From an uncultured delta proteobacterium (lineage in GTDB: Bacteria > Desulfobacterota > BSN033 > UBA1163), in contig CAVPSJ010000012.1 of NCBI GenBank assembly GCA_963708295.1, positions 208,355 to 272,354 of the forward strand: a stretch of DNA of 64,000 nucleotides. Direction: 5' to 3'. Every line of letters starts with the position of its first letter. Positions within the stretch are counted from its first letter, which is position 1. The notes under the pieces are model-generated. The model did not search any database. It saw only the letters and a program-made list of their open reading frames with translations, and was not told where the DNA came from. The position numbers and the translations under genes are program-made. This document shows positions 1,938 through 21,225 of this stretch, one piece after another.

Positions 1938-1943
1938 ACCCTA

Positions 1944-2533: not shown

Positions 2534-2550
2534 GATCTTCTCCCCCTCCC

Positions 2551-3066
2551 TTATTTAGGCAGGAATTGAAGCATAACCGGCTGGGTCAGGAAAACGATGA
2601 AGAGGATGGTCGCAAGCAGTGCCACGACCGCATACGTTTCAACGAATGCCGGGAAAAGGACCGCCTTACCGGCAGCCTCCGGTCTGCGGGCCAGGAGCGA
2701 AATACCCGCAGCAGAGGCCTCTCCCTGATAGATCGCAGAGATAAACTGGGCAAGACCATCTCCAAGCCCGATAAAGAAGAGCGCAATGCCTGTGCCGAGG
2801 GATATCTTCAGCGGGCCGCCGCCGATGAGCCCTGTCTGGGTCATCATGAGAATCGCTGCGATAAATCCGTAGAACCCCTGTGTGCCGGGGAGCGCAATCA
2901 TCACCAGCATTCGGCCGAAGAGTTCCGGCTTCTCCCGCATCACGCCGGCAGCCTGGTGAGCGGCGATGGCAATACCCCAGGCAGAGCCGGAACCGGCCAA
3001 ACCAAAGGCCAGGCCCGCACCAGCAAAGCAAAGACCGCGTCCTATCTCGATCGATTCAGGTATCAT
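2551..3066 (-). CDS. V/A-type ATP synthase subunit K (4-TM proteolipid), Na+-type motif
   Basis: LPGTQGFYG, SAIYQG and VETYA motifs as in Enterococcus NtpK. Confidence 0.93.
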   Translation of the reverse strand: MIPESIEIGRGLCFAGAGLAFGLAGSGSAWGIAIAAHQAAGVMREKPELFGRMLVMIALPGTQGFYGFIAAILMMTQTGLIGGGPLKISLGTGIALFFIGLGDGLAQFISAIYQGEASAAGISLLARRPEAAGKAVLFPAFVETYAVVALLATILFIVFLTQPVMLQFLPK

Positions 3067-3133
3067 TTCTCCTCCTCCGTAGTTTCTTGGAATAGGGACC
3101 GGACCTGTCGTCTCCCATCCCGATCCGGTGCCC

Positions 3134-5253
3134 CTATTTCCCCTTGAACAAACTCGGCTCTCCGGACCTTTTCACGATGCACGCAGGTGAATCAAAGCCA
3201 AGCGGCTGGAAAGGACGGGAACCCCCCTCATAAAACCGGCCAAAGAATTCAACGAAGATGAGCCTCATGGAGTGCACAAATGCCCCAAGGACACTGATGC
3301 AGAAATTAAACAGATGACCGACCACGAGCACGATCAGAAAGAGGATGAACCCGACGTAGGGTACCTCCCTGAGCATGCCTGCCATGAGGTTGAAGGTCAT
3401 GGCCACGATGGAAGTCGTCAGACCGAGTGCCAGCAGACGGCAATAGGAAAGCGTATCGCCGATGAAAGCCGTGATGCCGTAGCTGCCCATGATGCCGTAG
3501 AGACTCACCAGGCCACCTGCCAACTTCCCGAATGGGCTTTTGAAGTCCCTGCCCTGAGTCAGCACGAGGCCAATGGCGCCGACGATAAAAAGCCAAAATC
3601 CCGTATTGAAAAGGGCGGCAGGGATATCGGTGAATATTTTCCCGACCATCATCAAGAGACCGGTCAGGGTGACAATCCAGCAGACCCCGTCAGAGAATGC
3701 CCCCAGAAAGTCTCTATTTCTGAGGGCGCCGTACATCTTGAGGATAATCCCGTAGAACTGGTTGCAGATTCCGATACCGAGTGCACAGAGAAGGGCAACG
3801 ATGGTCTTGTCGATGGGATCGATCACCACGAACATCTCCTGCAGACGCAGGAGAAAGTTGTCCTTCCCGAGGTAGTCAGGCTTGTAAAGATCACCGAACC
3901 ACGAACCCGTGAGGGCGCCGAAGAGGATGCTGCTGATCCCTCCGTAGAGGAGGATACGTGAGAAGTTATTCAATCCTTGGTACGGTTTTGTCTTTGCCGC
4001 AAGATAGGCCCCCAAGGCTGTGAGCATGATCCCGTAGCACACGTCGCTGAAGCAGATACCGAAGAACAGGTAAAAGTTGACCTGCAGGAAGGGGGTGGGA
4101 TCGAACGACTTGTACGGCGGAAGACCAAACATCTCCACGAGGAGTTGGATGGGCCTGAAGAGGTTCGGCACGGTGATACTCACCGGCACATCATCATCCG
4201 GACCGGGATCCTGGATCGTGACCTCGGAGTCCGGGAATTCCTGCCTCATGGTGGCGAGAAATCTCTCCGCATCCTTTTTGCGGATGTACCCGCCGATCAC
4301 GTGGACCCACTTGCCCTGGACCCCCTTGGTGGAAGCGAGCTGGGTGTTCTTCATGTTCTGCCAGTAGGCCCTCAGAATGAGTAGAGAGCGCCGGCCTTCG
4401 CCGGCTCGATGACCTTGGGCGAGAGATTTCACTTTCTCGGCCACGTCATCCACTTTCTGTTTGTACTCGGCTAAATCAGACCGCAGTTCATCGATCCGTT
4501 CGGAGATCTTTCTCGGAAAGCTTGGGGAGCTGAATTTCATCGAATCCGATCGATGCCAGGTCCTTGCGGACGCCCTCACTGTCTTCCGCAAGAAAGGCAA
4601 TCACCATGCGCACCCGCTCTTCCTCCCCTTTCGATGAGGGGCTTCCGCTCTGGGAGGGCCTGGTGACTCGTTTCCGGCTCACTCCGGGTTTGATTTCCTC
4701 CCATGCGGCTCGGTTCCATGGCTCCGTGCCCTCGTTGAGAAGGGTGAGATTCTTTCGGGGCAGGTTCCCAAACACAAGGCGTGTCTTCACGGGGCGAGTG
4801 GAAGTCAGCCATGTTAAAGGGTAGATCGCTCAAGGGATCGAGTTCCTTCAGCTCGTTTTCGATTTCGCTCGATCACCCGTTCGGCTGACCGGTACCTCTC
4901 ATCCAGTTCACCCGCATCCCTGAACGTCTGTTCAAGGTCGAACTTGTCTATGACGGACTGGATCTCCTGCGGCGAGGTGACGAGCGGGACGGGCGCCAAT
5001 CCTTGGACGAAACTCTGCTTCTCAGGAGAAAGGAGGTTCATGAGGTTCAGGATGAAGTCGATCTGGTGAAGTTTTTCATCCACCTCTTCCGTGCTCGTAT
5101 CGCAGCGTTCGGAGAGAGGGCTCCCCTGACTCCTGGATGTCCTTGAGGTCGGTCACCTCCATGACCCCAAGACGATTGATTGTCTTCATCAGCCTGTCTG
5201 TTGGAATTTCTCGGACTGATCAGGGTCACCTTTTTAATGGGTTCAATCGCCAT
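3134..5253 (-). CDS. V/A-type ATP synthase subunit I (a), several frameshifts in the 5' half
   Basis: MAIEPIKKVTLI start; FGLPPYKSFDPTP, GDTLSYCRLLALGL and HSMRLIFVEFF motifs. Confidence 0.93.
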
Positions 5254-5256
5254 AGG

Positions 5257-5570
5257 TTATAGCTCGCTGAATTTCGTGACAATCTTGGTCAATCTGCTCT
5301 TTTAACGTGCTGCCTGCAATCTGATCGATGGCATTCAAAGCCTGGGCAAGATCCTTCTCCGCTTCGGCAACGGAGCGCTGATGCTTCTCCTCCATCTCTT
5401 TCTGAAAGGCTGAAGATTTTCTGTTCCGTTTCTTCAGCCAGTTTCCGGCGGTATGCCTCAGCCTCTGCGATGGCGGATTTCTCCAACTCTTTTGCCTCGG
5501 CACGGGCCTGTGCCACAATCGCATCGGCTTCCTTTTCCAAAGACACAATATCTTCAACCAGAGTAGCCAT
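5257..5570 (-). CDS. V/A-type ATP synthase subunit H/G (peripheral stalk), frameshifted
   Basis: Coiled-coil MATLVEDIVSLEKEADAIVAQARAEAK; first gene of the operon. Confidence 0.75.
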
Positions 5571-5747
5571 CCGGTCACCCTTCCTAAACCGTCAGCACAA
5601 CCCATCCTTCAGCATCTTCCAGTGGATTTCAGAACGATACTTGAACCACTCCGTGCAGTCTGCCAATTCTTTATTCGGCAAGAGGCTTTCGCACACAAAC
5701 TAAGGCGCTCATATTACATAAAATGACTTAAAAATCAAATCCTTTTC

Positions 5748-6399
5748 CTATTTAATTTTCTGGATGTCTTTTTCTTTTCCAATCACGACTAAGACATCGC
5801 TGTCCTTGATCGTAAAGTCCGCACGGGGAACCATGGTCAATCGTTCCGGCAGCATCTCCCTCACGGCAATGACCTCAATATGGTATTTGCTTCTCAGGTG
5901 GAGCTCTCCGATCGTCTTTCCCATAAAACTTGGGGGAGGCGCTATCTCACAAATGGTGTAATCATCCGAAAGAGGAATATAATCAAGGACATTGGGGGAG
6001 ATCAGGCTTCTGGCCACTTTGTCTGCCATCTCCCTCTCAGGAATGATCACCTCTGTCGCTCCCACCTTTTCCAAGACATGCTTGTGGTCTTCATTGGGCG
6101 CCTTCACAATGATATGTCTTCACTTTCATCTCTTTAAGATGGAGGGTAATGAGCGTACTGGCAGCCAGGTCCTCGCCAAAAGAAATGATGACCACATCGT
6201 CCGGCTGGATGCCGATCGATTCGATCACCTCTTTGTCTGTGCCGTCGGCAAGAATGGCCTTCGTGGAGAAATCTCTGATTTTCTGAATGACCTCTTTATT
6301 CTTGTCAATGGCAATCACTTCAAACCCATTTTCGTAAAGATCTTTTGCGATATTAAATCCGAAGATCCCCAACCCGATCACCACCACTCGTTTCATCAA
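5748..6399 (-). CDS. ktrA: Ktr/Trk K+ uptake RCK subunit (KtrA/TrkA), frameshifted near 6110
   Basis: VVIGLGIFG Rossmann motif plus RCK_C (GKTIGELHLRSKYHIEVIAV). Confidence 0.9.
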
Positions 6400-6429
6400 A
6401 CTCCCTCCATCTTCACCCGAAGCAGTTGT

Positions 6430-6505
6430 TATCTTCTGCCTATTGCCTTCTGCCTTATGTTTTTTGCCTTTTGCCTACTCCTCGCCCACTGCCTACTGCT
6501 ACTTT
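6430..6505. repeat. Degenerate heptamer tandem array (TGCCTWY-like)
   Basis: ctgcctattgccttctgcctta...ttgccttttgcctact...ctgcctactgctact. Confidence 0.6.
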
Positions 6506-7926
6506 TATCCCACCATGACCCCTTCCTCGGCGTAAGTCAACGTTCTTCGTCCGGTGTCTCGGGAGAGCGAGAAAGCGAGCGTCAGGGGCCCTACCCTTCC
6601 CACAAACATCATTAAAATGAGCGCATATTTCTGAAGATCATTCAGCTTCGGAGTGACCCCCATCGAAAGCCCCACCGTCCCGAAGGCCGAAACCGTATCA
6701 AAAAGGTATTCCACGAAATGGTGACGGCTCTCCAGCGGCGGAAGTTTTCCTCCTCCGGCGATCAGGAGAACAGAGGTAATGATAGCGATCGAAAAAGCGG
6801 ACGCGAAAATGATCGAAATGGATCGGCTGACGATCTCCCTGGGAATGGTCCGGTTGAAGATATTCAAATCGAGATTTCCCTTCAGCCGGTTCCACATGAG
6901 CATGACCAGAAGAGCGGCGCTGGTCGTCTTAACACCCCCACCCGTTGAACCTGGAGAGGCTCCGATGAACATGAGGACCATCATCAGGAGGATGGTCGCA
7001 TTGGTCAGTAGTCCTATATCTACGGTATTGAATCCTGCTGTCCGGGGCGTGACCGACTGGAAGAAGGAAGTTAGGATTTTGGTCAGGACCGGAGCGTCTT
7101 TAATGATATGGTTTCTTTCAAACAGATAAAATAAGAGGGCACCAGAGAGAATGAGGAGGGTGGTACTGATAAGCACGATTTTTGAATGGACAGAAAGCTT
7201 TTTTTGTGTCCCTTTGAACCAGGAAAGCACTTCGTACTGGACGATAAAACCGATCCCTCCGTGAACGATCAAGCCCATGACGGTCAGATTGACGATGAGA
7301 TCTCCCTGATACCCCATCAGGTTGTCGGAAAAGAGAGAGTACCCGCAGTTATTGAAAGCGGAAATCGCATTATAGACGGCATGATAAAGGGCTATCCCGG
7401 TGGGAAAATCCATGGAAAACCGGATGAAGAGAAAGAGGGTTCCGAGGGCTTCCGTGACGAACGTAAACCAGAGGACCATCTTGGCAATCACGATGAAATC
7501 CGTTCGAGGGGTGTGGAGAAAGGTTGATTGAACAATCTCTCTTCCCTTGAAAGAAATTCCTCGACCCATTAAGACGAAGAAAACCGTGGAGAAGGTGATG
7601 ATACCCAGCCCACCGATTTGAAAAAGGAAGATCGTGATCACCTGACCCCATAGGCTTAGGTCTTTTCCGATGTCGATGACGACGAGGCCCGTTACGCAGA
7701 CGGCAGAGGTAGACGAGAAGAGAGCATCCACAAAACGGAGAGGCTCCTTTGAGGCTGAAAAAGGAAAACAAAGGAGAATTCCTCCTGTCAGGATCACCGC
7801 GGCAAAACTGAGGACAAAGATCCTGGTCGGGGAAAGGTATCTCGAAAAGAAGTTTTTAACTCGGATGCGAATCTCTATCGGCATGGATATTATTAGGAAC
7901 CTTCCAATTTTAAACAAATTGACCAC
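6505..7926 (-). CDS. ktrB: Ktr/Trk K+ uptake membrane subunit (KtrB/TrkH)
   Basis: SAVCVTGL, SAFNNCGY, PRTAGF, SAFGTVGLS pore-loop glycine motifs; GASPGSTGGGVK. Confidence 0.93.
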   Translation of the reverse strand: MVNLFKIGRFLIISMPIEIRIRVKNFFSRYLSPTRIFVLSFAAVILTGGILLCFPFSASKEPLRFVDALFSSTSAVCVTGLVVIDIGKDLSLWGQVITIFLFQIGGLGIITFSTVFFVLMGRGISFKGREIVQSTFLHTPRTDFIVIAKMVLWFTFVTEALGTLFLFIRFSMDFPTGIALYHAVYNAISAFNNCGYSLFSDNLMGYQGDLIVNLTVMGLIVHGGIGFIVQYEVLSWFKGTQKKLSVHSKIVLISTTLLILSGALLFYLFERNHIIKDAPVLTKILTSFFQSVTPRTAGFNTVDIGLLTNATILLMMVLMFIGASPGSTGGGVKTTSAALLVMLMWNRLKGNLDLNIFNRTIPREIVSRSISIIFASAFSIAIITSVLLIAGGGKLPPLESRHHFVEYLFDTVSAFGTVGLSMGVTPKLNDLQKYALILMMFVGRVGPLTLAFSLSRDTGRRTLTYAEEGVMVG

Positions 7927-7959
7927 CCCATATTACATGAAATTTTACAAAAATCAACC

Positions 7960-8112
7960 CGTTCGGCTCACCCGCTCGACTCGCGGGTCTGTCCCTCGAC
8001 TTCGTTCGGGAAACGGCCTAAGGGGGATGAGCCGTTCAATAGACTCAAGGCCATGAGCCTGTCGAAAGGCTTGTCGATGGAAGCAGGGGTTTGGTACCGT
8101 CGAACGTATCGA
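7960..8112. repeat. Degenerate REP-like cluster (CCTCGACTTCGTTCGG / GAGCCTGTCGAA type)
   Basis: Several short TCGA-centred hairpin units in a non-coding gap. Confidence 0.45.
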
Positions 8113-8152
8113 ACTCCACGCTCTTGCGGGTGTCGCACCTCACATTTCACAT

Positions 8153-8183
8153 AAAAAAGGCAGGAACATCCTTCCTCCTGCCT
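8153..8183 (-). terminator. Intrinsic terminator closing the small-protein array
   Basis: Minus strand AGGCAGGAGGAAGGATGTTCCTGCCT followed by a T-run. Confidence 0.7.
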
Positions 8184-8296
8184 CGTTCTTCAACAGCGGA
8201 TTGTTGGTTTCTCTTATTGAAAACTGCCAACTTCTTGGAATTGCCGGATACAGCTTCGCCCCTGCGTCGAAAGGGGAACGGGGTCGACATTGGGTC

Positions 8297-8401
8297 TTAG
8301 GGTCTCAAAAAAAATACAAACCCTATCACCAATGCGACCGCTATCGCAATGACTACCACCCAGACCCAAATTGAAGCACCAGCTTCTTTCTTTTCTTCCA
8401 T
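8297..8401 (-). CDS. Small single-TM protein (34 aa)
   Basis: SD GGAGGTG; MEEKKEAGASIWVWVVVIAIAVALVIGFVFFLRP*. Confidence 0.65.
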   Translation of the reverse strand: MEEKKEAGASIWVWVVVIAIAVALVIGFVFFLRP

Positions 8402-8505
8402 CTCCGTCACCTCCTTCAAAAAATGAGGATCGTGCCATGTCAGGAGTAGGCTGACCTTCCATTCTTACAACGGATGAACGATCTGGGGCACCTCAAGACC
8501 ATCGA

Positions 8506-8757
8506 TTAATAATTCTCCAGGTTTCTTAATAAGGTTTTCAGCTTATCGGGGATAGAGTTCTCCTTGGGGTTAGTCTCTCCAATCTCCCCTTCAGTAATTT
8601 GAACCGGCATGATTAATTTATTATCCTTTGTAAGAAATTGAACCTTATAGTTTCTATATTTGTAATCAATCACTTTACACTTAATACATCCATTTAAATG
8701 CATGATTGCCCAATCCAATATTTCTTGAGCCTCTCTTATCTTTTCACCCTCGTCCAT
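8506..8757 (-). CDS. Hypothetical soluble protein (83 aa)
   Basis: SD GAGGAGG upstream; intact ORF. Confidence 0.65.
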   Translation of the reverse strand: MDEGEKIREAQEILDWAIMHLNGCIKCKVIDYKYRNYKVQFLTKDNKLIMPVQITEGEIGETNPKENSIPDKLKTLLRNLENY

Positions 8758-9021
8758 ATTAACGCCTCCTCTTTTGCAACTCCATTGTCCTCCCTGCCTA
8801 TAACTCCATATGAATCTTTTTTTCTTTCCTTTCAGTTATAAAACCGAAGATAGCGGATCAAGGTGGCTATGCCCAAGGTTATGACCGAAACAATCGCCCC
8901 GGGCTAGTATTGGTTCATGAATGACATAGGCGGTCGTAAGTAATTGGCAAAACCGAAGATTGTTCAGGAGTCATTACAAAGGAATCGACCCTACTCATCT
9001 TGTTTCATACTGTTCTCTCTA

Positions 9022-9213
9022 TTAAGATTGACTCTGAGTTGACGGGCCCTTATCCATTGTTTTTCCGAAGTGTGCCAATGCCCAAATCATCCCCACACCC
9101 GACATAATCACAAGCGCAAATATAATGGTGGGGTGCACGGGCAGGTGCCTAATCACCGTCCATGCTACGAAATTGCCAATGATCGGCCCAGCCACAGCTA
9201 ACACTTGTTTCAT
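9022..9213 (-). CDS. Small two-TM protein (63 aa)
   Basis: SD GGAGGG; MKQVLAVAGPIIGNFVAW...MIWALAHF; paralog at 10057-10365. Confidence 0.75.
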   Translation of the reverse strand: MKQVLAVAGPIIGNFVAWTVIRHLPVHPTIIFALVIMSGVGMIWALAHFGKTMDKGPSTQSQS

Positions 9214-9435
9214 CTTTCCCTCCTTCCATAAGTTGACTCACAAAGTCTTGGTTCTTAAAAAAACAAGATTCCATTGCCATAGATGAAACACCCTTCCAGC
9301 GGTGTCGTGATCACTCCGATAGATGCAGGCACCCCTATCCAGAGTGCGTCACCTTCTGGTAAAGCATAAAGGTAAGGAATAGAGAATTTCCGCTCCAGAT
9401 AATTGCATCAAGGGTTTTCTTGCCTTTTTCAGATC

Positions 9436-9519
9436 CTACAACTTCTTCACCGCACGCCCCATGAAGAAAATAACCCCTATCATGATGAGTGCTGCCACTA
9501 TAATCCCTAGCGTAAACAT
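9436..9519 (-). CDS. Small single-TM protein (27 aa)
   Basis: SD GGGAGG; MFTLGIIVAALIMIGVIFFMGRAVKKL*. Confidence 0.65.
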   Translation of the reverse strand: MFTLGIIVAALIMIGVIFFMGRAVKKL

Positions 9520-9598
9520 AAGACCTCCCTGTTTCGTGCACTAGATTTCATGGTGTCAAAAATATGCCACACCCTATATCCTTTTCGCATTCACTCGT

Positions 9599-10033
9599 TT
9601 ACTTCACGGAGAACACCTTCGAAGTCCCGCGGTATTTAGATCTCAACTGGGAAAAAACCCGTACCTTACAATGTTTCGAATCCACCTTAGGAACATTCCA
9701 AATATACTTCCCAGAATTGGGCACATTTTCCCCAACGTTCTGCCACGACTTCCCCCCATCTTTTGAGAACTCAACGGTCACCATCGCCCCAAATTCGGAT
9801 TCCGCCGGTTCCGATTTCCAGAGGACCTCATACGAATCTTCTGCTTTGACGACATCATTTGCCTTTGGACTCAGAATCATGACCCCTTTATCTGGCTTAG
9901 CGGTTAGAATGCTGACCACGAAAATGATTGCAACGATAGCAATCAAGACCAGCATGAATCCCCCCATCGTCAAAAAAGTATAGAATTTGCTCCAAAATCC
10001 CCGCTTCATTTCTTTCGGCTCCGCTGCTGCCAT
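9599..10033 (-). CDS. Membrane-anchored protein with Ig-like extracytoplasmic domain
   Basis: N-terminal TM, then LSPK...YEVLWKS...VEFSKDGGKSWQ...NSGKYIWNVP beta-sandwich pattern. Confidence 0.75.
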   Translation of the reverse strand: MAAAEPKEMKRGFWSKFYTFLTMGGFMLVLIAIVAIIFVVSILTAKPDKGVMILSPKANDVVKAEDSYEVLWKSEPAESEFGAMVTVEFSKDGGKSWQNVGENVPNSGKYIWNVPKVDSKHCKVRVFSQLRSKYRGTSKVFSVK

Positions 10034-10056
10034 TATTTCCTCCTTCCTGGATGAGT

Positions 10057-10365
10057 TTAATTGGCTCTTGTTAAGTATCCTTCAAAAAGAATGAATTCAG
10101 GATTCTGGTCAAAGGCTTCCTGTCCTGTTACAGCGATACTCCCTCTGTTGAGCTTCTGTCTAGTAAAGGATTTTGGCAAAATTGGCTCTAAGTTTGACGG
10201 GTTCTTATTCGTTCTTGCAAAATGTGACAATGCCCAAATCATTAACAATCCTCATGTGATTACCAGCGCAAAGATGATGAGAGAGTGCACAGGCAACAGA
10301 GTGATCAACGCCCATGCAACAAAATTGCCTACGACTGGCACAGCGACACTTAAGAATTGTCTCAT
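10057..10365 (-). pseudogene. Paralog of the 63-aa two-TM protein with an in-frame TGA at codon 38
   Basis: SD GGAAGGGGG; MRQFLSVAVPVVGNFVAWALITLLPVHSLIIFALVIT*GLLMIWALSHF; TGA at 10252-10254. Confidence 0.7.
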
Positions 10366-10423
10366 CGTTTCCCCCTTCCATCAGTTGATTCAAAAAAAAG
10401 AAAGATTTCGCGGCCGTCTTGCA

Positions 10424-10524
10424 CTCCAATAAAAAAGCCGCTACCCGAAGTTCTATCTTCGGATAGCGGCCCGACTATCCAGTGCTTTAACCTCCAGAAA
10501 TAACAAAACGTATTTCTGGACCCC
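10424..10524 (-). ncRNA. Riboswitch-like aptamer plus intrinsic terminator, copy 2 (probable DUF1646/Na+-I class)
   Basis: GGGT-[CCAGAAATA..TATTTCTGG]-AGGTTAAAGC-[ACT GGAT AGT]-CGGGCC overlapping terminator GCCGCTATCCGAAG..CTTCGGGTAGCGGC-TTTTTT; class recalled, not searched. Confidence 0.65.
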
Positions 10525-10591
10525 TGTCATATCCTTTAACAAAATGACTTACTCAAAGATGTCTTATCTTTTTTTCTTATGCTACAACCAC

Positions 10592-10691
10592 CTCCAATAA
10601 AAAAGCCGCTACCCGAAGTTTTATCTTCGGATAGCGGCCCGACTATCCAGCCTCTTAACCTCCAGAAATATTTGATATACTTCTGGACCCA
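10592..10691 (-). ncRNA. Riboswitch-like aptamer plus intrinsic terminator, copy 1 (probable DUF1646/Na+-I class)
   Basis: Near-identical to 10424-10524 at 168-bp offset; changes fall in loops/linker or keep pairing as G-U. Confidence 0.65.
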
Positions 10692-10884
10692 AAAAGAACC
10701 CTACGTTCGATATGATGGATACGATGTAGTTATCAAACTATTCCATGAATGTCAAGGATTTTTTCTTACCCGATCGCCTCGATCGAAGAAATGATCCTCC
10801 AAAGAAAGGCTTGTCTTTTTCTGAGAAAATTATATGATGATTTCTATCAACAAACCTCGTCGAGGGAATAAAAAATCAATCGGT

Positions 10885-12731
10885 ATGATTCGATCGCTTC
10901 GCAAAAAAATCTTCATTGGATACGGCATCGCCCTGGCTTTGATGGTTGTGGTCTTTGTTTGGGCCCTGGTCCATCTGCTCGACCTCGGTGAAGCGAGCGA
11001 TGCTATTTTGAGAGAAAACTATAAAAGCATTCTTGCCGCTGAAAATATGGTCTATGCCATCGAGCGACAGGACAGTGCAACCCTGCTTCTCTTTCTAGGG
11101 TACGAGGAGCAAGGCAGGAGACAGTTCCGCGAGAATGAGAGCCTCTTTTTCCAATGGTTGGCCCGGGCAAAGGATAATATTACCGTCGAAGGGGAGGAAA
11201 GAATTGTCAGCACCATTGAAAAAGAATACTCGACCTATCTGCAGCATATCTCCGGACTTCCACCTGTCTCCAAGTCCAATCTGCAGAAAAGTGCAGCCTT
11301 TTATCACGAAACCATACTCCCCTCGTTTATTTCTGTCCGGGATGCATGTATTCGTCTCCGTGAGATCAACCAGGAAACGATGTTTAAGGCCAGCGAACGG
11401 GCTCGCCACGTCGCAAAGAGAGCGATCTGGTCGATGGTCATTATCGGCAGCGCGGCCGTGGGGATCGGACTGGGATTCAGCCTTCTGCTTTCAAATCTTC
11501 TCGTCAAACCGGTTCGGCGCATGATGGAAGCGACGCAAAAGATTTCCGAGGGAAATTATGACGTGGAAATTTCAGTCGCATCCTCTGACGAATTGGGCGA
11601 TTTGACATCCGACTTTAATCAAGATGGCCAAAAAGTTGAAAGCCTATCACGACCTGAATATCGATCAAATCTTGGCAGAGAAACGAAAGAGCGATGCGAT
11701 TATTCGAAGTATCGATGACGGAATTGTCGTTGTCGACAAGGAACTCAAGGTGACCGGGATCAATCCAACAGCGGCAAGAGCACTTAGCATTGAACCGGAT
11801 CAGGTACAGAACAAGCATTTTCTTGAGGTGGTCAAGAATGAAATGTTGTTCAATTATGTGAAGCAGTCCGTTGAAACGGGCCAGCCTCCTTCCATCGAAG
11901 AGAGGAAGACGATTTTCACGATCGAAGAGGGAGAGAAACAACGGCACTACCAATTTTCGATTACACCGGTGCATGGGAAGCCCGGGTCTTTGTTGGGGGT
12001 TGTCTTGCTTTTGCGTGATGTGACCCGCCTGACGGAATTGGACCGTCTCAAAAGCGAATTTGTCATGATGGCTTCGCATGAATTGCGAACCCCTTTAACG
12101 AGCATCGGCATGAGCATCAAGCTCCTTCTCGAAAAAACCATGGAGAAACTCGACGGGAAAGAGCAGCAGCTTCTTTTGGCCGCTCATGAGGACCTGCAAA
12201 GGCTTAAAAACCTTGTGAACAACTTATTGGATCTTTCGAAAATTGAAGCAGGAAAGATGGCGATGGAGTTTGAAAACATTTCTGTTGATAGCCTCTGCCA
12301 GAACGCAATGGGTGTTTTAAAGAACCAAATCGATGCAAAAGGAGTCAACGTGACTTTGGATTTACACCCCCATCTCCCCAACGTCAAAGCAGATGCCAAT
12401 AAGATCATCTGGGTGTTGACCAACCTGATCTCCAACGCCCTGCGTTACACTGACAGCGGAGGACAGATTCGCCTTTCTGCCGAGCGGATCGGCCCCTACA
12501 TTCATGTCTCAGTCAGTCGACAACGGGCCAGGGATTCCGTTTGAAGTTCAATCCAAGATCTTTGACAAATTTGTTCAGATCAAAAGCGACAAGGCCCTTG
12601 GAGGAAGTGGTCTCGGATTAACCATCTGCAAAGAGATTATTCGTGCTCATGGCGGTACGATATGGGTAGATTCAACCCCGGGAGAAGGAAGTACCTTTAC
12701 CTTCACGCTCCCGATCGTAGAAAAATCCTAA
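10885..12731 (+). CDS. Sensor histidine kinase (periplasmic 4-helix sensor, HAMP, PAS, HisKA, HATPase), frameshifted
   Basis: ILRENYKS sensor; ASHELRTPL H-box; NLISNA, DNGPG and GSGLGL boxes across ORFs 10834-11718, 11624-12544, 12504-12731. Confidence 0.9.
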
Positions 12732-13442: not shown

Positions 13443-15494
13443 TTATTTGACAGACCATATTTTGACCCATCTTGCCGCAGCAAGGGCCGAGAGATTGGAT
13501 ACCACTCCCAAAAGACGGCGTTGATCAAGCAGAAGATTCTTAAAATCGTACTCAATGCCGATCACTCCGATAATCTCCTCAAGCGATTTCATGGGTATGA
13601 AAAAGACTCTAATGTCTGGCAGCGTTTGGGTACCCGCACCCGCAGGTTCGCCGTGGGCGTACGTCCACTCCGCAACCGCCATCTCGTTAGTCGTGAGATC
13701 AATTTCAGGGTTGACTTCGAGCCCAAACCTGCAGCCTCCCGTCTTGGCCGCTGAAAAGGACAAAAGAGCGGTGCATCCACGATCTTCGAGAGATACTTGA
13801 TCGCAATATGGCTGATGTGATCAAGAACCGTCGTACGAAAAAGTGTTAAAACATTTTTCCATTCGCTTGAATTCTGAACAAGCCCCCCGACGAATTGTTC
13901 AACGGGGGGAAGCATCAAAAATTCTTTGCTCATCTCTTCGATGAGGGTAATCCGCCTGATACGAAGTTGCAGAAGAAGGTTTTGCCGTTTCGTTATTTTG
14001 ACAAGTTGTCCGATGATGATCGAGGTGAGGAAAAAGACCATGACATTGATGATGTCATGGGGATGATGCATGCTGAAGCTATATCTTGGTTCGGTAAAGA
14101 AAAAATCGAAGGTAAGCAGGCTGATGATGGAGGAAAACAAGGAAGGCCCGGTGCCGAAAAGGAGGGCACTGGCAATCGTTGCGATCAGATAGATATAAAC
14201 CAGGGATATGGGATTGATAAAATTCTGAAGGAAAAAGTTCAACAAGGTAACACCGACGACCATAAGAACAGTGAGCAAGTAATCCTTGGGATCGAGCACA
14301 AGTTGTCTGGGAGTGGGTCTTGCCTCTATCTCTCTTTTTTCAACGGTTGGCGTGATGAGATGGAGCTCAAATTCGCTCGGGGTGTGCAGAAGGCGTGACG
14401 CGGGCGAGCCTTTCCAGAATCCCAATAGCATGGAATGGAGGGGCTTACCGATCACGATATGGTTAATATTATACTCACGGGCAAAACGAAGGATCTCACT
14501 CGCTACGTCTGTTCCGGAAAGAGTCACAATTTTTGCCCCCAATTCCTCGGCAAGATTCAATGCCTCAGCGATATAAGCCTTATCTTTATCCGACATCTCT
14601 TTCAGGGCGGGTGTAGAGACATAGGCAGCATACCATTCCGCATGGGCATCTTTGGCGATGCTGTATCCTTTGCGGAGAAGCTGTTTTGCATACGGACTTG
14701 GCGCAATACATACCATCAATCTTTCGCCCGCCGGCCAGGGGCCGGAAATCGCCTTCGCCCTCATATAGTTCAAAAGTTCAGTGTCCATTTTGCGAGCGGC
14801 GTGGGTGAGCGTCAGCTCGCGGAGGGCGACGAGATTGCCTCGCTGGAAAAAGTTCTGCATCGCCCGTTCCGCCTGCCTGGGAATGTATACTTTTCCTTCT
14901 TTCAGCCGCTCAAAGAGTTCTTCCAGGGGGATATCGATGACCTGAACTTCGTCTGCCCGATCCAGAAAAGTATCGGGCAATGTCTCTTGCATACGTATCC
15001 CCGTGATCTTTTCGACGACGTCGTTGAGGCTTTCAAAGTGCTGGACGTTCATCGTTGTATAAACATCAATGCCGCTGTCGAGCAATTCTTCAACATCCCG
15101 ATATCGTTTGGGATGGCGGCTCCCGGGGCATTGGTGTGTGCAAGTTCATCGACCAGGACCACGGCAGGCCGCCGCGATAGAATGGCGTCGAGGTCCAATT
15201 CTTCAAGGACGATCCCTTGATATTCCACACGCCGTCGTGGAATCATTTCCAGATCTTTGAGTAATGCCTCCGTTTCAGAGCGGCCATGCGTCTCTACAAT
15301 GCCCACCACCACGTCTTCGCCGCGCTTCTTCAAGACATGAGCTTCATTGAGCATGGTATAGGTCTTTCCGACGCCGGGCGCATAGCCCAGAAATATCTTT
15401 AACCTTCCCCTTTTTTCTTCCTCGCGCTGAACTTCCTTTAAGAGGGCGTCCGGATCCGGTCGTGAATGGATCTTTAAGCTGTATTAACTTTCAT
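13443..15494 (-). CDS. kdpD: KdpD-like sensor (KdpD N-domain, Usp, DUF4118 TM, partial GAF) lacking the kinase core; frameshifted
   Basis: RGRLKIFLGYAPGVGKTY, VDELAHTN, TTMNVQHFESLND, FDFFFTEPRYSF; no H-box or HATPase before the stop; start approximate. Confidence 0.88.
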
Positions 15495-15649
15495 CTCTTA
15501 GGACTGCCCCCATGGGTTTCGATTGCGCATTTCAAACGATTCCACCATAGCTGCCGGGTTACTCTCCAACCACCCCACCGCTCTCCCGCGGGGGTCATAA
15601 GCACGAACTTCACTCTCTCTGCCTTTCAGAGAGGAGTTTTCTTAATTCC

Positions 15650-15687
15650 TCTCCCTTCAAGGGGGAGGTTGGGAGGGGGATGGGGTT
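15650..15687. repeat. REP-like hairpin flanking the DUF559 gene
   Basis: CTCCCTTCAAGGGGGAGGTTGGGAGGGGGATGGGG; inverted copy at 16153-16192 and further copies at 46538-46626. Confidence 0.7.
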
Positions 15688-15920
15688 GCAGCTCCTGAAC
15701 TAATATCCAAATCTTCTCTTTTACCGACTCCATCTCATGAAGAACCTCATTGTTCCATAATCTGAGAACGCGAAAACCAGCCGCCTGCAGTTTTTGTGTG
15801 CGATTTTCGTCATATGATACCTGCTCTCCATGTTGTCCCCCATCTACCTCAATTACCAGCTTGTTTTCCAGGCACACAAAATCGAGGATGTAGTCACCAA
15901 ATGCATGTTGACGGCGAAAT

Positions 15921-16022
15921 TGAAGCTCCCCGCACACAAGGCGGGGGCTTCCGGTAAGGTATTATCATTCATATTGTGCTCCTTCATTCCGCCTGCTCGG
16001 CGGGCCTTCGGGACACGCTCCG
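15921..16022 (-). mobile_element. Non-autonomous IS200/IS605-type palindromic element (PATE-like), copy 1
   Basis: Similar to 39951-40053; minus strand follows TTGAC and ends GAAGCCCCCGCC..GCGGGGAGCTTCA; no target duplication. Confidence 0.75.
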
Positions 16023-16152
16023 GTCAAACCACAAACTTGACGACCTCGCAGAAGTTGCGACAAAGCCTGTTCCGCGTCAGACATATTGTTACGCAACGCC
16101 CGTTGCAGTTTGGCCAACCGTATCTTTTTGTTTGTCTGGCCAATCACAATCT

Positions 16153-16192
16153 ACCCCATCCCCTCCCCACCCCTCTCCTTGAAGGAGAGGGA
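16153..16192. repeat. REP-like hairpin flanking the DUF559 gene (inverted copy)
   Basis: ACCCCATCCCTCCCCACCCTCTCCTTGAAGGAGAGGGA. Confidence 0.65.
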
Positions 16193-16271
16193 ACATTAAG
16201 TTAGCGCTTATGCCCGTCGAGGGGAAAAGAGGACCATTGGAGCTCATTTTACAGAAATTGTGCTTTTAAGT

Positions 16272-16857
16272 CTATTTGCTCTTCCTTGATGCCTCATCCA
16301 GTGCCAGGTTCAATTCGAGAACGTTGACCCGTGGCTCACCCAAGACGCCGAATTGTCTTCCCTCGGTGTGTTCTTGTACAAGTTGTTTCACTTTGTCTTC
16401 GCTCATTCGGCGTTCGCGGGCAACCCGTGGAATCTGAAAATCAGCCGCTGCCGGGCTGATGTGCGGGTCAAGTCCGGATCCGGAAGAAGTGATGAGGTCG
16501 ATCGGGATCTCTACGTTGGGATTTTCAGTGCGCAATTGTTTTGAACGCTCTCTCACCTGCTCCTCAAAAAGCTGCTTACTTGTCGGCCCGAGATTCGTGC
16601 CGCCCGAAGCGGTCGCATCGTAACCGGAACCGGCTGCAGAAGGCCGCGAGTGGAAATACCCTGGACCTTTGAAAGGTTGCCCAATCAAACGAGATCCGAT
16701 CACCTTCCCTTCTCTCTCAATAAGACTCCCACGAGCTTTTTCCTTAAAGAGTAACGTCTGATAACCCGGTCATAACGAACGGGTAAATGATTCCCACAAG
16801 CACTGTGAGTACTATTGTTAATGCAACAGCCGGGTAGATTTGCTTCGACAAATTCAT
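16272..16857 (-). CDS. kdpC: K+-transporting ATPase subunit C, frameshifted near 16750
   Basis: [43 protein letters not shown]. Confidence 0.95.
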
Positions 16858-16870
16858 TTGATTTCCCCCA

Positions 16871-19008
16871 TCACACCAACCCAACAAGGTAACAATGACA
16901 TCGATCATCTTAATTCCTACGAAGGGAATCACAATGCCGCCAAATCCGTAGAGGAGCAGGTTGCGCCTGAGCACCACCGCCGCCCCCAAGGGGCGATATT
17001 TGATCCCCCGTAAAGCCAGAGGAATCAGTGCAACAATGATCAGCGCGTTGAAAATCACCGCTGACAAAATGGCCGACTCCGGTGTGGCTAACTGCATGAT
17101 GTTAAGCGCAGAAAGAGGCCCGCTCTTTGCGCCAATCGCCATGTATAATGTTGAAAACATGGCCGGGATGATGGCAAAGTATTTAGACACATCATTGGCA
17201 ATGGAAAACGTCGTAAGCGCACCACGTGTCATCAGAAGTTGCTTGCCAATCTCAACGATCTCGATGAGCTTTGTGGGATTCGAATCGAGATCGACCATGT
17301 TCCCAGCCTCTTTAGCCGCCATCGTCCCGGTGTTCATCGCCACGCCAACATCCGCCTGAGCAAGAGCCGGAGCATCATTCGTACCATCGCCGGTCATCGC
17401 CACAAGCTTCCCCTGAGCCTGTTCGCGACGGATGAGATCCATTTTGTCTTGCGGCTTTCGCCTCTGCGAGAAAATCATCTACTCCCGCTTCACCGGCAAT
17501 GGCTGCTGCGGTCAAAGGATTATCCCCTGTAATCATGACGGTTTTAATCCCCATTTTTCTCAGTTGCACGAACCGCTCTCGCATCCCTCCCTTTACAATG
17601 TCCTTCAGGTGGATCACGCCGAGCATGCGATTCCGATCGCCAACAACCAGGGGTGTCCCACCGGACTTCGAGATGCGTCCAATAATTTCTCTCAGCTCAG
17701 GCGGCTCAGTTCCTCCTTGAGAACTAACGAATGAGATTATCGCATCAGGGGCACCCTTCCGGATCGAGCGCCCCCCGATGTCAACTCCCGACATCCGGGT
17801 GTGCGCGCTGAAGGGGATGAACTGCGCCTCTGTGGACGACAGCTCCCGTCCTCGCAGTCCATACTTTGTCTTTGCCAGAACCACGATCGAGCGGCCTTCC
17901 GGGGTTTCGTCCGACAAACTCGACAGCTGGGTTGCGTCTGCCATTTCCTTCTCTGTCACTCCAGGAAGCGGAATGAATTCAGTGGCCTGCCGGTTGCCAA
18001 GGGTAATCGTGCCCGTCTTATCCAGAAGCAAGGTGTTTACATCGCCCGCGGCCTCAACTGACCGGCCTGACATGGCGAGCACATTGTGTTGAATCAGTCG
18101 ATCCATCCCTGCGATGCCGATGGCCGAAAGCAGCCCTCCAATCGTGGTCGGGATCAAGCAAACGAGCAATGCCACCAGCACCGTAATCGAAGGCGGCAAA
18201 GCCCGTACAAAACTACCCGCCGCATTTGAGGCTCGAACGCTGTAAATGGCATACGGCAGCAGTGTTGCGACTGCCAGGACAAAAATGATCGTGAGCCCGG
18301 CCAGCAATATATTGAGTGCGATCTCGTTCGGCGTCTTTTGCCGTTCTGCACCCTCCACCAGTGCGATCATACGATCCAGGAAGGTGTCCCCGGGATTCGA
18401 TCGGATCCGCACCTTGATCCAATCTGAAATCACTGTTGTTCCGCCCGTGACTGCCGAGCGGTCTCCCCCTGCTTCGCGAATGACAGGCGCACTTTCGCCG
18501 GTGATGGCCGATTCATCTACCGATGCAACACCCTCAATGACGTCTCCATCCCCCGGGATTACTTCTCCAGCTCGGACCAGCACAACATCGCCCTTTCGTA
18601 GGTTCGTCGCAGGGACGCGTTCGGTCTTAACCTGTTCTACCCCCTTACCGATATCCCCCCCAATATTCCCAATAATGAGGTTGGCCAGGGTTTCAGTCTT
18701 CGCTTTGCGAAGCGTATCAGCCTGCGCCTTTCCACGACCTTCGGCCATAGCTTCCGCAAAATTGGCAAAAAGCACGGTGAACCAGAGCCACAAGCGTTAC
18801 CTGTATCGTGAAAAGCAAGGTGGCCAGTATTGCCGATAGCAATATCCCGAAAAATGAGTAACGTCGTGAGCACGCTGCCTATCTCAACGACGAACATCAC
18901 CGGATTGCGCGCAACCTGCCGCGGGTCCAACTTCCTGATCGCATCCTTAATGGCCCGCTTCACGATGGGCGGGTCGAAAAGAGGTCTCTTCTGTGTTTTT
19001 CTTGCCAT
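16871..19008 (-). CDS. kdpB: K+-transporting ATPase subunit B, frameshifted
   Basis: [21 protein letters not shown] phosphorylation motif, [14 protein letters not shown]. Confidence 0.97.
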
Positions 19009-19172
19009 ATCGTTCTCGTATCTTTAGGCGTCTCCTTCAATCTGCAATTCATCTCCCCATTCAGAGGAACACTCCAACCTAAATCCAGATGAAAAAATTA
19101 ACCCCAAACTCAGTGCGGAATACAAGGCGTGTAAGTCATCACGGAGCTATAGATCTAGTTCTGAATTAGGGT

Positions 19173-20964: not shown

Positions 20965-20989
20965 CTTGTGTTCCCTCCAGGGGACTGAT

Positions 20990-21079
20990 TCAAAACTTCT
21001 CAGGTCTGAGCAGGGCATATGTCAGATAGACAAGCAGCCCAAGACCAATGATCCCGCTGATGATATATTCCCAATTCAC
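20990..21079 (-). CDS. kdpF: KdpF small subunit (29 aa)
   Basis: GTG start; MNWEYIISGIIGLGLLVYLTYALLRPEKF*, with the typical YL..ALL.PEKF end. Confidence 0.9.
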   Translation of the reverse strand: MNWEYIISGIIGLGLLVYLTYALLRPEKF

Positions 21080-21092
21080 GTTCTACCCCCTG

Positions 21093-21176: not shown

Positions 21177-21225
21177 TTCAATACCCTCTCAATTATTGAA
21201 ACTCGATTGATTGGTCTCCTGAAAT

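What the first reader, a model, noticed from the sequence alone, without database searches (positions are those of the whole stretch)
10424..10691. Tandem riboswitch-like units, each with its own terminator (probable Na+-I/DUF1646 class)
Seen: two ~100-nt near-identical minus-strand units 168 bp apart, each GGGT-hairpin-AGGTTAA-small hairpin-GTCGGGCC. The final GCC also starts a strong intrinsic terminator. Differences fall in loops or the linker, or keep pairing as G-U, which suggests selection on RNA structure. Knowledge, recalled rather than searched: this layout resembles the DUF1646 motif, validated as a Na+-sensing riboswitch. Inference: aptamer folding would block each terminator (ON switch), and two in series would sharpen the response. 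The neighbouring Na+-type V-ATPase, Ktr and Kdp genes fit an ion-sensing role.
Basis: partly seen in the sequence, partly recalled or inferred. Interest (0 to 1): 0.8.

Follow-up and report, generated by a model that had tools for sequence, protein, structure and literature searches.

The report
Tandem nhaA-I cation riboswitch pair
Two copies in a row of a known ion-sensing RNA switch (the nhaA-I lithium/sodium class, not the DUF1646 sodium class), each with its own transcription stop signal, sit in front of a set of tiny membrane-protein genes; the arrangement is real but of a kind already described.

Summary
Two minus-strand units (aptamers 10690-10629 and 10523-10461) each match Rfam nhaA-I (RF03057; 50.2 and 53.3 bits, cut-off 37). 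Each is followed by a 16-bp intrinsic terminator whose 5' arm reuses the loop and 3' strand of aptamer helix P2, so the two folds exclude each other. There is no DUF1646/Na+-I (RF03071) match at the locus even at E<=10, and none in the genome.

The units belong to the terminator-coupled nhaA-I variants that White et al. 2022 found in Deltaproteobacteria upstream of hypothetical genes and named Na+-II. That paper also noted tandem Li+-I arrays. Both window units carry U, not the C of the validated Na+-II RNA, at the tested specificity position. The ligand (Na+ most likely, Li+ or broader possible) is therefore open.

Covariation across 69 related units supports P1, P2 and the terminator. Doublets or triplets make up 12 of 61 regulatory regions surveyed, and one doublet is conserved across genera. 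The regulated genes are small membrane and hypothetical proteins, not the neighbouring Ktr, V-ATPase or Kdp genes.

Verdict: a genuine pseudo-cooperative ON switch, and a new member of a known kind.

The parts
10750..10755 (-). Perfect TTGACA hexamer, a possible -35 about 60 nt upstream of unit 1 (tentative)
   Evidence: Read directly. What follows at 17 nt is only a weak TG-extended -10-like TAACTA. The consensus scan reported no minus-strand promoter, so the promoter is not established.
10629..10690 (-). Unit 1 aptamer: GGGU, P1 (10686-10677 with 10671-10662), AGGUUAA linker, P2 (10648-10642 with 10635-10629) with loop CGGGCC
   Evidence: cmscan RF03057, 50.2 bits against a cut-off of 37, model positions 1-55 of 55. 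P1 and P2 covary across 69 related units.
10597..10640 (-). Unit 1 intrinsic terminator: a 16-bp stem (10640-10603) plus T-tract. Its 5' arm is the GGGCC of the P2 loop, the whole P2 3' strand and GAAG.
   Evidence: Terminator scan. It is part of the MFE fold. The terminator fold is 14.1 kcal/mol more stable than the fold with P2 enforced. The stem covaries.
10524..10596 (-). A+T-rich spacer between the units, with no plausible ORF and no promoter-like site found
10461..10523 (-). Unit 2 aptamer with the same architecture: P2 10480-10474 with 10467-10461, loop CGGGCC 10473-10468
   Evidence: cmscan RF03057, 53.3 bits, model positions 1-55 of 55.
10429..10472 (-). Unit 2 intrinsic terminator (16-bp stem 10472-10435 plus T-tract)
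   Evidence: The terminator fold is 16.1 kcal/mol more stable than the fold with P2 enforced.
10252..10365 (-). First downstream ORF: a 37-aa membrane peptide ending at TGA. It is a nonsense-interrupted paralog of the 63-aa ORF at 9213-9022. The same frame runs on to 10057 through a remnant of about 45 aa of another riboswitch-associated family.
   Evidence: One search reports '1 TGA inside the match'. The 5 of the 13 homologs whose sequences I fetched have Ser at that codon. BLAST links the tail to the 101-aa protein behind the doublet in L030.
9599..10033 (-). 144-aa membrane-anchored protein with a weak Kre9_KNH Ig-like match. Its homologs sit directly behind single riboswitches in relatives.
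   Evidence: Pfam E 3.2e-4, below the curated cut-off. Homologs lie behind riboswitches in L007, L017 and L029.
9436..9519 (-). Possible 27-aa transmembrane ORF with a GGGAGG Shine-Dalgarno sequence
   Evidence: Read directly; not tested further.
9022..9213 (-). 63-aa two-helix membrane protein of a rare, unnamed family, with a leader homologous to that of the first ORF
   Evidence: 13 homologs among 5.8 billion clusters, none with a Pfam domain. Found in 3 of 61 related genomes.
8506..8757 (-). 83-aa hypothetical protein. Its homologs sit directly behind riboswitches in L010 and L011.
   Evidence: No Pfam or NCBIfam family.
8297..8419 (-). 40-aa single-pass membrane peptide. Its homologs sit behind riboswitches in L013, L015, L028 and the L019 doublet.
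8150..8184 (-). Terminator-like hairpin that probably ends the riboswitch-controlled operon before ktrB
   Evidence: 10 pairs, 5 GC, T-run.

Best explanation
The locus is a doublet of complete transcriptional ON riboswitches of the nhaA-I motif, in the terminator-coupled form described for Deltaproteobacteria ('Na+-II'-like). Each aptamer has a P1 hairpin, an AGGUU linker and a P2 hairpin with a CGGGCC loop.

Inferred mechanism: when the aptamer binds a monovalent cation during transcription, P2 is held shut. Its 3' strand and loop are then unavailable, so the 16-bp terminator that needs them cannot form and RNA polymerase reads on. Without ligand, the much more stable terminator wins. Because two such units lie in series in one leader, a transcript must pass both. 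Output is therefore roughly the product of two read-through probabilities, which lowers leak and gives a steeper, more switch-like response (pseudo-cooperativity).

The controlled genes are an operon of small membrane and hypothetical proteins (10365 to about 8297), not the adjacent Ktr, V-ATPase or Kdp genes. The physiological ligand is most likely Na+ (about 55%). Li+ or a broader alkali/ammonium response cannot be excluded, because both units carry U at the position whose C-to-U change broadened the specificity of the validated Na+-II RNA.

Shown here: motif membership, structure covariation, mutually exclusive folds, recurrence of arrays. Inferred: ligand, co-transcription of both units, dose-response sharpening.
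For: Class:
- Both units match RF03057 over the full model at 50-53 bits against a cut-off of 37.

Structure (alignment A2, 69 distinct terminator-bearing units from this genome, relatives and named MAG records):
- P1+P2: 97.3% of cells paired against 93.4+/-0.3 in shuffles (0 of 500 reach it). 8 of 16 pairs change on both sides (1 of 500). Slid controls pair only 38-54%.
- Terminator: 91.1% paired against 87.5+/-0.4. 7 of 14 pairs change on both sides (4 of 500).

Switch logic:
- The terminator 5' arm is the P2 loop plus the P2 3' strand.
- The terminator fold is 14.1 and 16.1 kcal/mol more stable than the fold with P2 enforced. Read-through therefore needs ligand-stabilised, co-transcriptional aptamer folding.

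Precedent (PMC9646797, section 8 and supplement passages):
- The D. propionicus terminator-coupled variant has the same GGGGUCCAGAAA...UUUCUGGAGGUU P1 and the same P2/terminator overlap.
- It activated transcription with Na+.
- Its M2 (AGG to AAA) and M3 (loop GG to UU) mutants were dead. Both window units keep those nucleotides.

Series arrangement:
- No ORF and no promoter-like site lie between the units.

Recurrence of arrays:
- 6 doublets among 38 regulatory regions in 61 related genomes searched with the Rfam model.
- 12 arrays (10 doublets, 2 triplets) among 61 regions once pattern-scan loci are added.
- The window units are nearer to units in other genomes (94.7% and 88.5%) than to each other (86.5%). 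The genome's second doublet matches the doublet of another genus position for position (95.8%). The arrays are therefore maintained, not fresh duplicates.

Ligand:
- U and C states precede the same gene families: wHTH 6 U and 1 C; periplasmic binding protein 1 U and 5 C; 57-aa membrane protein arrays UCC and CCC.
- Three U-type units precede a glucosyl-3-phosphoglycerate-synthase-like gene (NF040724, E 2.3e-109, below the curated cut-off). From my own knowledge, this is a compatible-solute enzyme family, which fits a salt signal.
- The reviews state that same-ligand tandems narrow the response range (passages).
Against: - No ligand was tested. Both units have U at the 'C54' position. In the published C54U mutant (M4, whose sequence state AGUCGGGCC equals ours) the response broadened to Li+, Na+ and NH4+. 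Na+ selectivity cannot be assumed.
- No promoter was found by the scan, and no transcript data exist, so co-transcription of the two units is inferred.
- The terminators are predictions.
- The first ORF behind the doublet carries an in-frame TGA. Many genes in the window are split. The locus could be decaying, or the assembly may carry errors.
- The covariation alignment was assembled from sequences chosen by conserved motifs. The pattern scan fixed UCUGGAGGUU and the P2 loop. The sequences are also related, so the shuffle counts overstate independence.
Confidence: 0.78

Rival explanations
1. The units are classical Li+-I riboswitches. Both aptamers sense Li+ selectively and switch on a lithium-detoxification response.
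For: The Rfam family they match is the validated Li+-I motif (PMC9646797 abstract). They carry the U that most nhaA-I RNAs have at position 54.
Against: No nhaA or other cation exporter lies directly downstream. The paper says most Li+-I RNAs appear to act on the ribosome-binding site, while terminator-bearing ones occur only in Deltaproteobacteria before unknown genes and suggest a different ligand. The first P1 pair is C-G in 66 of 69 units and U-G in 3, as in the Na+-responsive D. propionicus RNA. It is G-C in the Rfam consensus and in the three classical constructs printed in the supplement. Caveat: the pattern scan fixed the 3' G for 33 of these 69 units. The 36 units from Rfam-found loci show C or U opposite G as well.
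Confidence: 0.15
2. The units are broad monovalent-cation (ionic strength or ammonium) sensors. The U-type terminator variants respond to several ions (Na+, Li+, NH4+), like the engineered M4 mutant.
For: M4 (C54U) has the same AGUCGGGCC state as both units. It responded to Li+, Na+ and NH4+. U is the majority state: 59 of 77 terminator-type units.
Against: M4 is one engineered point mutant in another sequence background. Natural U-type RNAs may have compensating differences. U and C states precede the same gene families, which suggests one shared physiological signal.
Confidence: 0.15
3. The units are Na+-I (DUF1646) riboswitches.
For: The two motifs look alike. The paper itself calls the consensus models similar (section 5).
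Against: RF03071 has no match at E<=10 at the locus and none in the 91%-complete genome. RF03057 matches the full model in both units.
Confidence: 0.02
4. This is a duplicated terminator or repeat element without ligand sensing.
For: The terminator hairpins dominate the minimum-energy folds.
Against: Both units give full-length covariance-model hits. All nucleotides whose mutation killed the validated RNA are conserved. Compensatory changes occur in P1 and P2, which a bare terminator does not need. 43 matches over the cut-off in 19 of 61 related genomes lie in 5' leaders.
Confidence: 0.03
5. The two units are not in series. Unit 2 has its own promoter in the 73-nt spacer, and unit 1 only yields a short terminated RNA, or acts as an sRNA.
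For: No promoter has been mapped anywhere in the leader. The spacer is A+T-rich.
Against: The scan found no minus-strand promoter-like site in 8000-11000. Spacers in other arrays are as short as 113-135 nt from start to start. Published tandem Li+-I arrays are read as pseudo-cooperative.
Confidence: 0.08

Closest known systems
Na+-II riboswitch (terminator-coupled nhaA-I variant) of Desulfobulbus propionicus, White et al. 2022, Sci Rep 12:19145 (PMC9646797)
   Same: The aptamer architecture matches, and the P1 is nearly the same (GGGUCCAGAAA...UUUCUGGAGGUU). The terminator reuses the P2 3' strand in the same way. It lies upstream of hypothetical genes. The lineage is of deltaproteobacterial type (named relatives are Thermodesulfobacteriota, Syntrophaceae and similar MAGs).
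   Different: The window units have U, not C, at position 54. They occur as a doublet. The linker is AGGUUAA rather than AGGUUUU.
Tandem Li+-I arrangements: 6 doublets and 1 triplet (Sherlock et al. 2022, RNA Biol 19:1059, PMC9481103); also 'several instances' and a triple array with terminators before nhaD (White et al. 2022, concluding remarks)
   Same: Same motif, several complete units in series, each with its own expression platform, read as pseudo-cooperative.
   Different: Those cases came from environmental sequences and were said to precede cation-transport and osmotic-stress genes. This one is in a binned genome and precedes small membrane and hypothetical proteins. The ligand specificity of the published arrays was also left undetermined. 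I could not see their sequences; the supplements of PMC9481103 were not opened.
Na+-I riboswitch (DUF1646 motif, RF03071), White et al. 2022, Nat Chem Biol (PMC9337991; listing and start of abstract only)
   Same: Similar two-hairpin layout, an ON switch for a monovalent cation, often with a terminator.
   Different: A different covariance model. No match here.
Same-ligand tandem riboswitches such as the TPP doublet of Bacillus anthracis (Welz and Breaker 2007, known to me only through its citation)
   Same: Two full riboswitches in one leader, giving a more digital response.
   Different: A different ligand class, and OFF switches rather than ON switches (the OFF/ON point is recalled, not checked).

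Membership tests
nhaA-I motif (Rfam RF03057; Li+-I riboswitch aptamer) | Covariance-model score at or above the gathering cut-off over the full model | tested here: met
   53.3 and 50.2 bits against 37, model positions 1-55 of 55.
nhaA-I motif (Rfam RF03057; Li+-I riboswitch aptamer) | Conserved GGGU, AGGUU and GUCGGGCCGC with helices P1 and P2 | tested here: met
   All are present in both units. P1 and P2 covary across 69 units.
nhaA-I motif (Rfam RF03057; Li+-I riboswitch aptamer) | Typical association with nhaA or another cation-transporter gene directly downstream | tested here: not met
   The downstream ORFs are small membrane and hypothetical proteins. TrkH lies beyond a terminator-like site.
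nhaA-I motif (Rfam RF03057; Li+-I riboswitch aptamer) | Selective Li+ binding and activation | not testable with these tools
   Needs in-line probing or transcription assays.
Na+-II riboswitch (White et al. 2022) | nhaA-I-like aptamer joined to an intrinsic terminator that competes with P2 | tested here: met
   Same layout as the published template.
Na+-II riboswitch (White et al. 2022) | C at position 54 (the nucleotide before the CGGGCC loop) | tested here: not met
   Both units read AGUCGGGCC, which equals mutant M4. The wild type is AGCCGGGCC.
Na+-II riboswitch (White et al. 2022) | Deltaproteobacterial host, upstream of genes of unknown function | tested here: inconclusive
   The gene association is met. 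Near-identical elements occur mostly in records titled delta proteobacterium, Thermodesulfobacteriota or Syntrophaceae, but also Nitrospirae/Nitrospirota, Nitrospinae and Desantisbacteria.
Na+-II riboswitch (White et al. 2022) | Na+-selective activation of transcription read-through | not testable with these tools
Na+-I riboswitch (DUF1646 motif, RF03071) | Covariance-model match | tested here: not met
   No match at E<=10 in 10300-10850. 0 matches in the own genome.
Pseudo-cooperative tandem riboswitch (same ligand, several expression platforms) | Two or more complete aptamer-plus-platform units on one strand in one leader, with no gene between | tested here: met
Pseudo-cooperative tandem riboswitch (same ligand, several expression platforms) | Both units on one transcript, with a steeper dose-response than a single unit | not testable with these tools
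   No RNA data are available for this stretch. It needs transcription assays with single and double constructs.

The most novel reading that the evidence does not exclude
The U-type, terminator-coupled nhaA-I variants may be a specificity group of their own. They are the majority form here: 59 of 77 units. They would be neither Li+-selective like classical Li+-I nor identical to the C54 Na+-II RNA. In Syntrophia-like anaerobes they would drive, often as doublets or triplets, a previously unrecognised salt/ion-stress regulon. That regulon would comprise micro-membrane proteins, a small wHTH regulator and a GpgS-like compatible-solute enzyme. Mixed arrays such as UCC (L215) would then be two-input devices. 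Arrays made of C-type units (L169, L179) would also show that Na+-II does occur in tandem, contrary to its listing among classes never seen in tandem (PMC9481103, Table 3 passage).
Probability: 0.2. Interest if true: 0.55.

Novelty: new member of a known kind. Interest (0 to 1): 0.3.

Why it matters
The finding adds a clean, genome-anchored example of a tandem alkali-cation riboswitch, and it corrects the class assignment. It also shows that most terminator-coupled nhaA-I variants in this lineage carry the nucleotide state that, in the only published mutant, loosened ion selectivity. The Li+-I / Na+-II boundary is therefore not settled by sequence. The regulated set of tiny membrane proteins of unknown function, together with a GpgS-like enzyme and a wHTH regulator in relatives, gives candidates for salt-stress functions in uncultured syntrophic anaerobes. 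None of this overturns current understanding.

Tried and rejected
The tighter pattern gave 56 loci. I dropped 3 of them (L182, L207, L213) as chance matches lacking P1 and a terminator.
- One unit (the same sequence in L018 and L163) has a degenerate T-run and was left out of alignment A2.
- Two further Rfam-found units (L023, L039) escaped my regex, so that tally holds 75 of 77 units.
- Rfam at E<=10 over 7900-10300 found no decayed riboswitch before the internal genes.
- The look-up of sequencing runs listed no RNA holder.
- Read laying on four DNA runs gave only fragmentary contigs. No listed piece spans both units, so nothing can be said from them about the doublet or the TGA.
- The search of earlier findings returned nothing for this place.
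- Pfam and NCBIfam gave no family for the 63-aa, 83-aa, 101-aa and 78-aa proteins.
- My guess that the truncated ORF behind the L169 doublet is NhaD-like found no Pfam support on its 119 residues.
- The promoter scan found no minus-strand site. The TTGACA at 10755-10750 is my own reading and is weak evidence.
- Selenocysteine at the in-frame TGA was considered and set aside. All 5 homologs fetched have Ser there, and no SECIS search was made.

Full report
**What is there.**
The minus strand of 10424-10691 holds two units. They align at 89% identity over 112 columns. By my reading of that alignment they differ at 13 positions:
- 8 in the apical part or loop of the first hairpin (one turns A-U into G.U),
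- 4 in the linker,
- 1 in the terminator loop.

None of the differences touches GGGU, AGGUU, the second hairpin, its CGGGCC loop, the terminator stem or the T-tract. A whole-window Rfam scan at gathering thresholds returned three matches:
- a c-di-AMP riboswitch far away (39765-39892, minus strand),
- nhaA-I (RF03057) at 10523-10461, 53.3 bits, E 1.1e-7,
- nhaA-I at 10690-10629, 50.2 bits, E 6.1e-7.

Both nhaA-I matches cover model positions 1-55 of 55, against a cut-off of 37 bits. A permissive scan of 10300-10850 (E<=10) listed 8 matches. Only the two nhaA-I hits exceed their cut-off, and RF03071 (DUF1646, the Na+-I aptamer) is not among them. RF03071 also has no match anywhere in the 4.95-Mb, 91%-complete genome.

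**Anatomy and switch logic.**
Unit 1 reads: GGGU; P1 10686-10677 with 10671-10662; AGGUUAA plus linker; P2 GGAUAGU (10648-10642), loop CGGGCC, GCUAUCC (10635-10629). Unit 2 is the same, with P2 at 10480-10474 and 10467-10461.

The terminator scan found 16-pair stems with 9 G-C pairs and a T-run at 10640-10603 and 10472-10435. The region held 6 terminator-like sites against 2.6+/-1.7 in shuffles. The 5' arm of each terminator is the GGGCC of the P2 loop, the entire 3' strand of P2 and GAAG. P2 and the terminator therefore cannot coexist.

The minimum-energy folds contain P1 and the terminator (z -6.8 and -6.9; 0 of 200 shuffles as stable). Forcing P2 costs 14.1 and 16.1 kcal/mol. Read-through therefore requires that the aptamer folds first and is held by ligand while the polymerase passes. 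That is an ON switch under kinetic control. This step is inference, but it is the mechanism demonstrated for the closest published relative.

**What is known.**
I read the following of White et al. 2022 (PMC9646797): abstract and outline, passages, sections 5, 8 and 13 in full, and supplement passages.
- nhaA-I RNAs are Li+-I riboswitches, mostly before nhaA and mostly thought to act on the ribosome-binding site.
- 'Rare variants' carry an intrinsic terminator. They were found only in Deltaproteobacteria and lie before genes of unknown function.
- The tested variant, from Desulfobulbus propionicus, was activated by Na+ and only weakly by Li+. These variants were named Na+-II.
- A single C54U change broadened the response to Li+, Na+ and NH4+.

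The printed templates show that C54 is the nucleotide before the CGGGCC loop: wild type AGCCGGGCC, M4 AGUCGGGCC. Both window units read AGUCGGGCC, which is the M4 state.

The window units do share other features with the D. propionicus RNA. These are the P1 sequence (GGGUCCAGAAA...UUUCUGGAGGUU), the C-G first pair of P1, and the terminator design. The Rfam consensus and the three classical Li+-I constructs in the supplement have G-C at that first pair.

The same paper's concluding remarks mention 'several instances' of tandem Li+-I riboswitches in environmental sequence, and a triple array with terminators before nhaD, with ligand specificity undetermined. Sherlock et al. 2022 (PMC9481103, passages only) count 6 doublets and 1 triplet of Li+-I as pseudo-cooperative systems. 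They list Na+-II among classes not seen in tandem. The literature searches were 'nhaA-I'+'riboswitch'+'lithium' (2 papers), 'nhaA-I' (7 papers) and 'Na+-II'+'riboswitch' (3 papers). From their titles and the abstract openings shown in the listings, none is a later experimental study of such arrays.

**Relatives.**
The own genome has six RF03057 matches:
- the window doublet,
- a second doublet on contig 13, 219 nt apart,
- two near-identical single units on contigs 5 and 8.

All six have terminators and U at the C54 position. Among 61 genomes (own plus 60 relatives), 19 have matches. Without the own genome, that is 17 of 36 in the same family, 1 of 1 in one other family of the phylum, and 0 of 23 in the other 12 families. 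In all there are 44 matches, 43 of them over the cut-off. Six pairs lie within 250 nt on one strand: G000 twice, and G003, G020, G034 and G050 once each. That makes 6 doublets among 38 regulatory regions.

A tight pattern scan of 185,579 species genomes gave 56 loci, of which I dropped 3 as chance matches. The record titles are mostly delta proteobacterium, Thermodesulfobacteriota, Syntrophaceae, Syntrophorhabdus or Desulfobacterales MAGs. A few are Nitrospirae/Nitrospirota, Nitrospinae and Desantisbacteria, a slightly wider range than the paper reports.

After removing identical sequences I had 69 units with a terminator: 51 U and 18 C. Eight more Rfam-found units that my first regex missed are all U. 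The total is 59 U and 18 C of 77. Grouping 75 of these gave 61 regulatory regions with 12 arrays: nine UU, one CC, one CCC and one UCC.

**Covariation.**
The analysis used the MAFFT alignment of the 69 units (A2).
- Aptamer helices: 97.3% standard pairs against 93.4+/-0.3 in column shuffles (0 of 500). 8 of 16 pairs change on both sides (1 of 500). Only 38-54% pair when the partner is slid by 1-3 columns.
- Terminator: 91.1% against 87.5+/-0.4 (0 of 500). 7 of 14 pairs change on both sides (4 of 500).

Caveats:
- The sequences are related.
- They were selected through conserved motifs.
- The pattern scan fixed part of the 3' strand of P1.

The counts therefore support the structures but are not probabilities.

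**Are the doublets maintained?**
Unit 1 is 94.7% identical to a single unit in another genus (L027). Unit 2 is 88.5% identical to L009. The two window units are only 86.5% identical to each other. The contig-13 doublet matches the doublet of genome G034 position for position (95.8% first to first). On these short sequences the differences are a handful of bases. Even so, they argue against a fresh local duplication and for retention of both units.

**What is regulated.**
The following lie behind the doublet:
- A 37-aa membrane ORF (10365-10252) that ends at a TGA. The 5 of its 13 database homologs that I fetched have Ser at that codon. The frame then runs into a remnant of about 45 aa of a 101-aa family that follows the doublet in L030.
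- A 144-aa membrane-anchored protein with a weak Ig-like match.
- A possible 27-aa peptide.
- The intact 63-aa paralog (9213-9022).
- An 83-aa protein.
- A 40-aa membrane peptide.
- A terminator-like site at 8184-8157.

None of these has a Pfam or NCBIfam family above its cut-off. In relatives, the 144-aa, 83-aa and 40-aa families each sit directly behind a riboswitch of their own. Here they appear gathered into one operon under the doublet.

Other recurring first genes in relatives:
- a wHTH protein of about 108 aa (7 regions),
- a periplasmic binding protein (6 regions),
- a lysine-rich single-pass peptide (4 regions, 3 of them doublets),
- a 402-aa glucosyl-3-phosphoglycerate-synthase-like protein (3 regions; NF040724 E 2.3e-109 but below its curated cut-off; PDB GpgS chains at E 2.4e-6).

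They lie outside the predicted transcription unit.

**Ligand.**
Points for Na+:
- The validated terminator-type relative senses Na+.
- The shared P1 base and terminator platform.
- The lineage.
- The gene set of unknown function.
- U and C states precede the same gene families: wHTH 6 U and 1 C, binding protein 1 U and 5 C, 57-aa membrane protein arrays UCC and CCC. This suggests one physiological signal.
- The GpgS-like association fits salt stress. That compatible-solute role is from my own knowledge, not from a call.

Point against certainty: the U state is exactly the one that loosened selectivity in vitro.

I put Na+ at about 55%, a broad alkali/ammonium response at about 15% and Li+ at about 15%.

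**Verdict.**
This is a genuine, well-supported tandem ON riboswitch of the nhaA-I motif in its terminator-coupled form. The kind of arrangement is in print, so the locus is a new member of a known kind. The modest new points are:
- the predominance of the U state,
- C-type and mixed arrays in public genomes,
- conservation of a doublet across genera,
- the small-protein regulon.

Noticed in passing
window 39765-39892 (-): A full-length c-di-AMP riboswitch (RF00379, 100 bits) lies upstream of an amino-acid-permease-like gene that is split into two ORFs (39186-39722 and 38124-39119).
   Followed up: partly
window 1164-7926, 13592-24781, 36279-37384: The window is a cation-homeostasis island. It holds V-type ATPase subunits, TrkH with TrkA, KdpD-like, KdpC, KdpB-like and KdpA genes, and a second TrkA pair. 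From memory only, the V-ATPase proteolipid (2551-3066) shows a PGTQG...ET pattern like Na+-binding rotor subunits. This was not tested.
   Followed up: partly
window 5748-6399, 10834-12731, 16747-20519, 38124-39722: Many genes are split or truncated: ktrA in two ORFs, a HAMP-PAS histidine kinase in three, kdpA covering only profile positions 197-548, kdpB fragments, and the permease. Either the assembly carries indel errors or the island is decaying. This tempers any reading of the TGA in the first riboswitch-controlled ORF.
   Followed up: no
window 10252-10254 (-) and 10057-10251: There is an in-frame TGA where the 5 of 13 homologs that I fetched have Ser. Downstream in the same frame lies a remnant of about 45 aa of the 101-aa 'ILFEGYLTKTN' family, which follows another doublet (L030). 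This points to a past rearrangement that placed a copy of the leader plus the small gene behind the riboswitches.
   Followed up: partly
G000 contig 5:99460-99520 and contig 8:163137-163197 (L005, L006): Two near-identical single riboswitch units with identical flanks each precede a 108-aa wHTH gene next to transposase-like ORFs. This may be a duplicated or mobile segment, or bin redundancy (contamination estimate 5.6%).
   Followed up: no
relatives, e.g. L010, L019, L027, L029, L030, L040: A motif like TTYCAAAAAAGAGRTTT precedes many aptamers. A look-alike, AAATYCAAAAAGNCTCGGA, follows many terminators. It could be partial copies of the repeated module or an operator, for instance for the riboswitch-controlled wHTH protein. 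It is absent from the window's own leader.
   Followed up: no
L215:345-770 (+), L179:666-1081 (-), L169:553-751 (-): These are triplet arrays (UCC and CCC) before 57-aa membrane-protein genes, and a CC doublet whose aptamers closely resemble the validated D. propionicus Na+-II RNA. C-type (Na+-II-signature) units therefore do occur in tandem in public genomes.
   Followed up: partly
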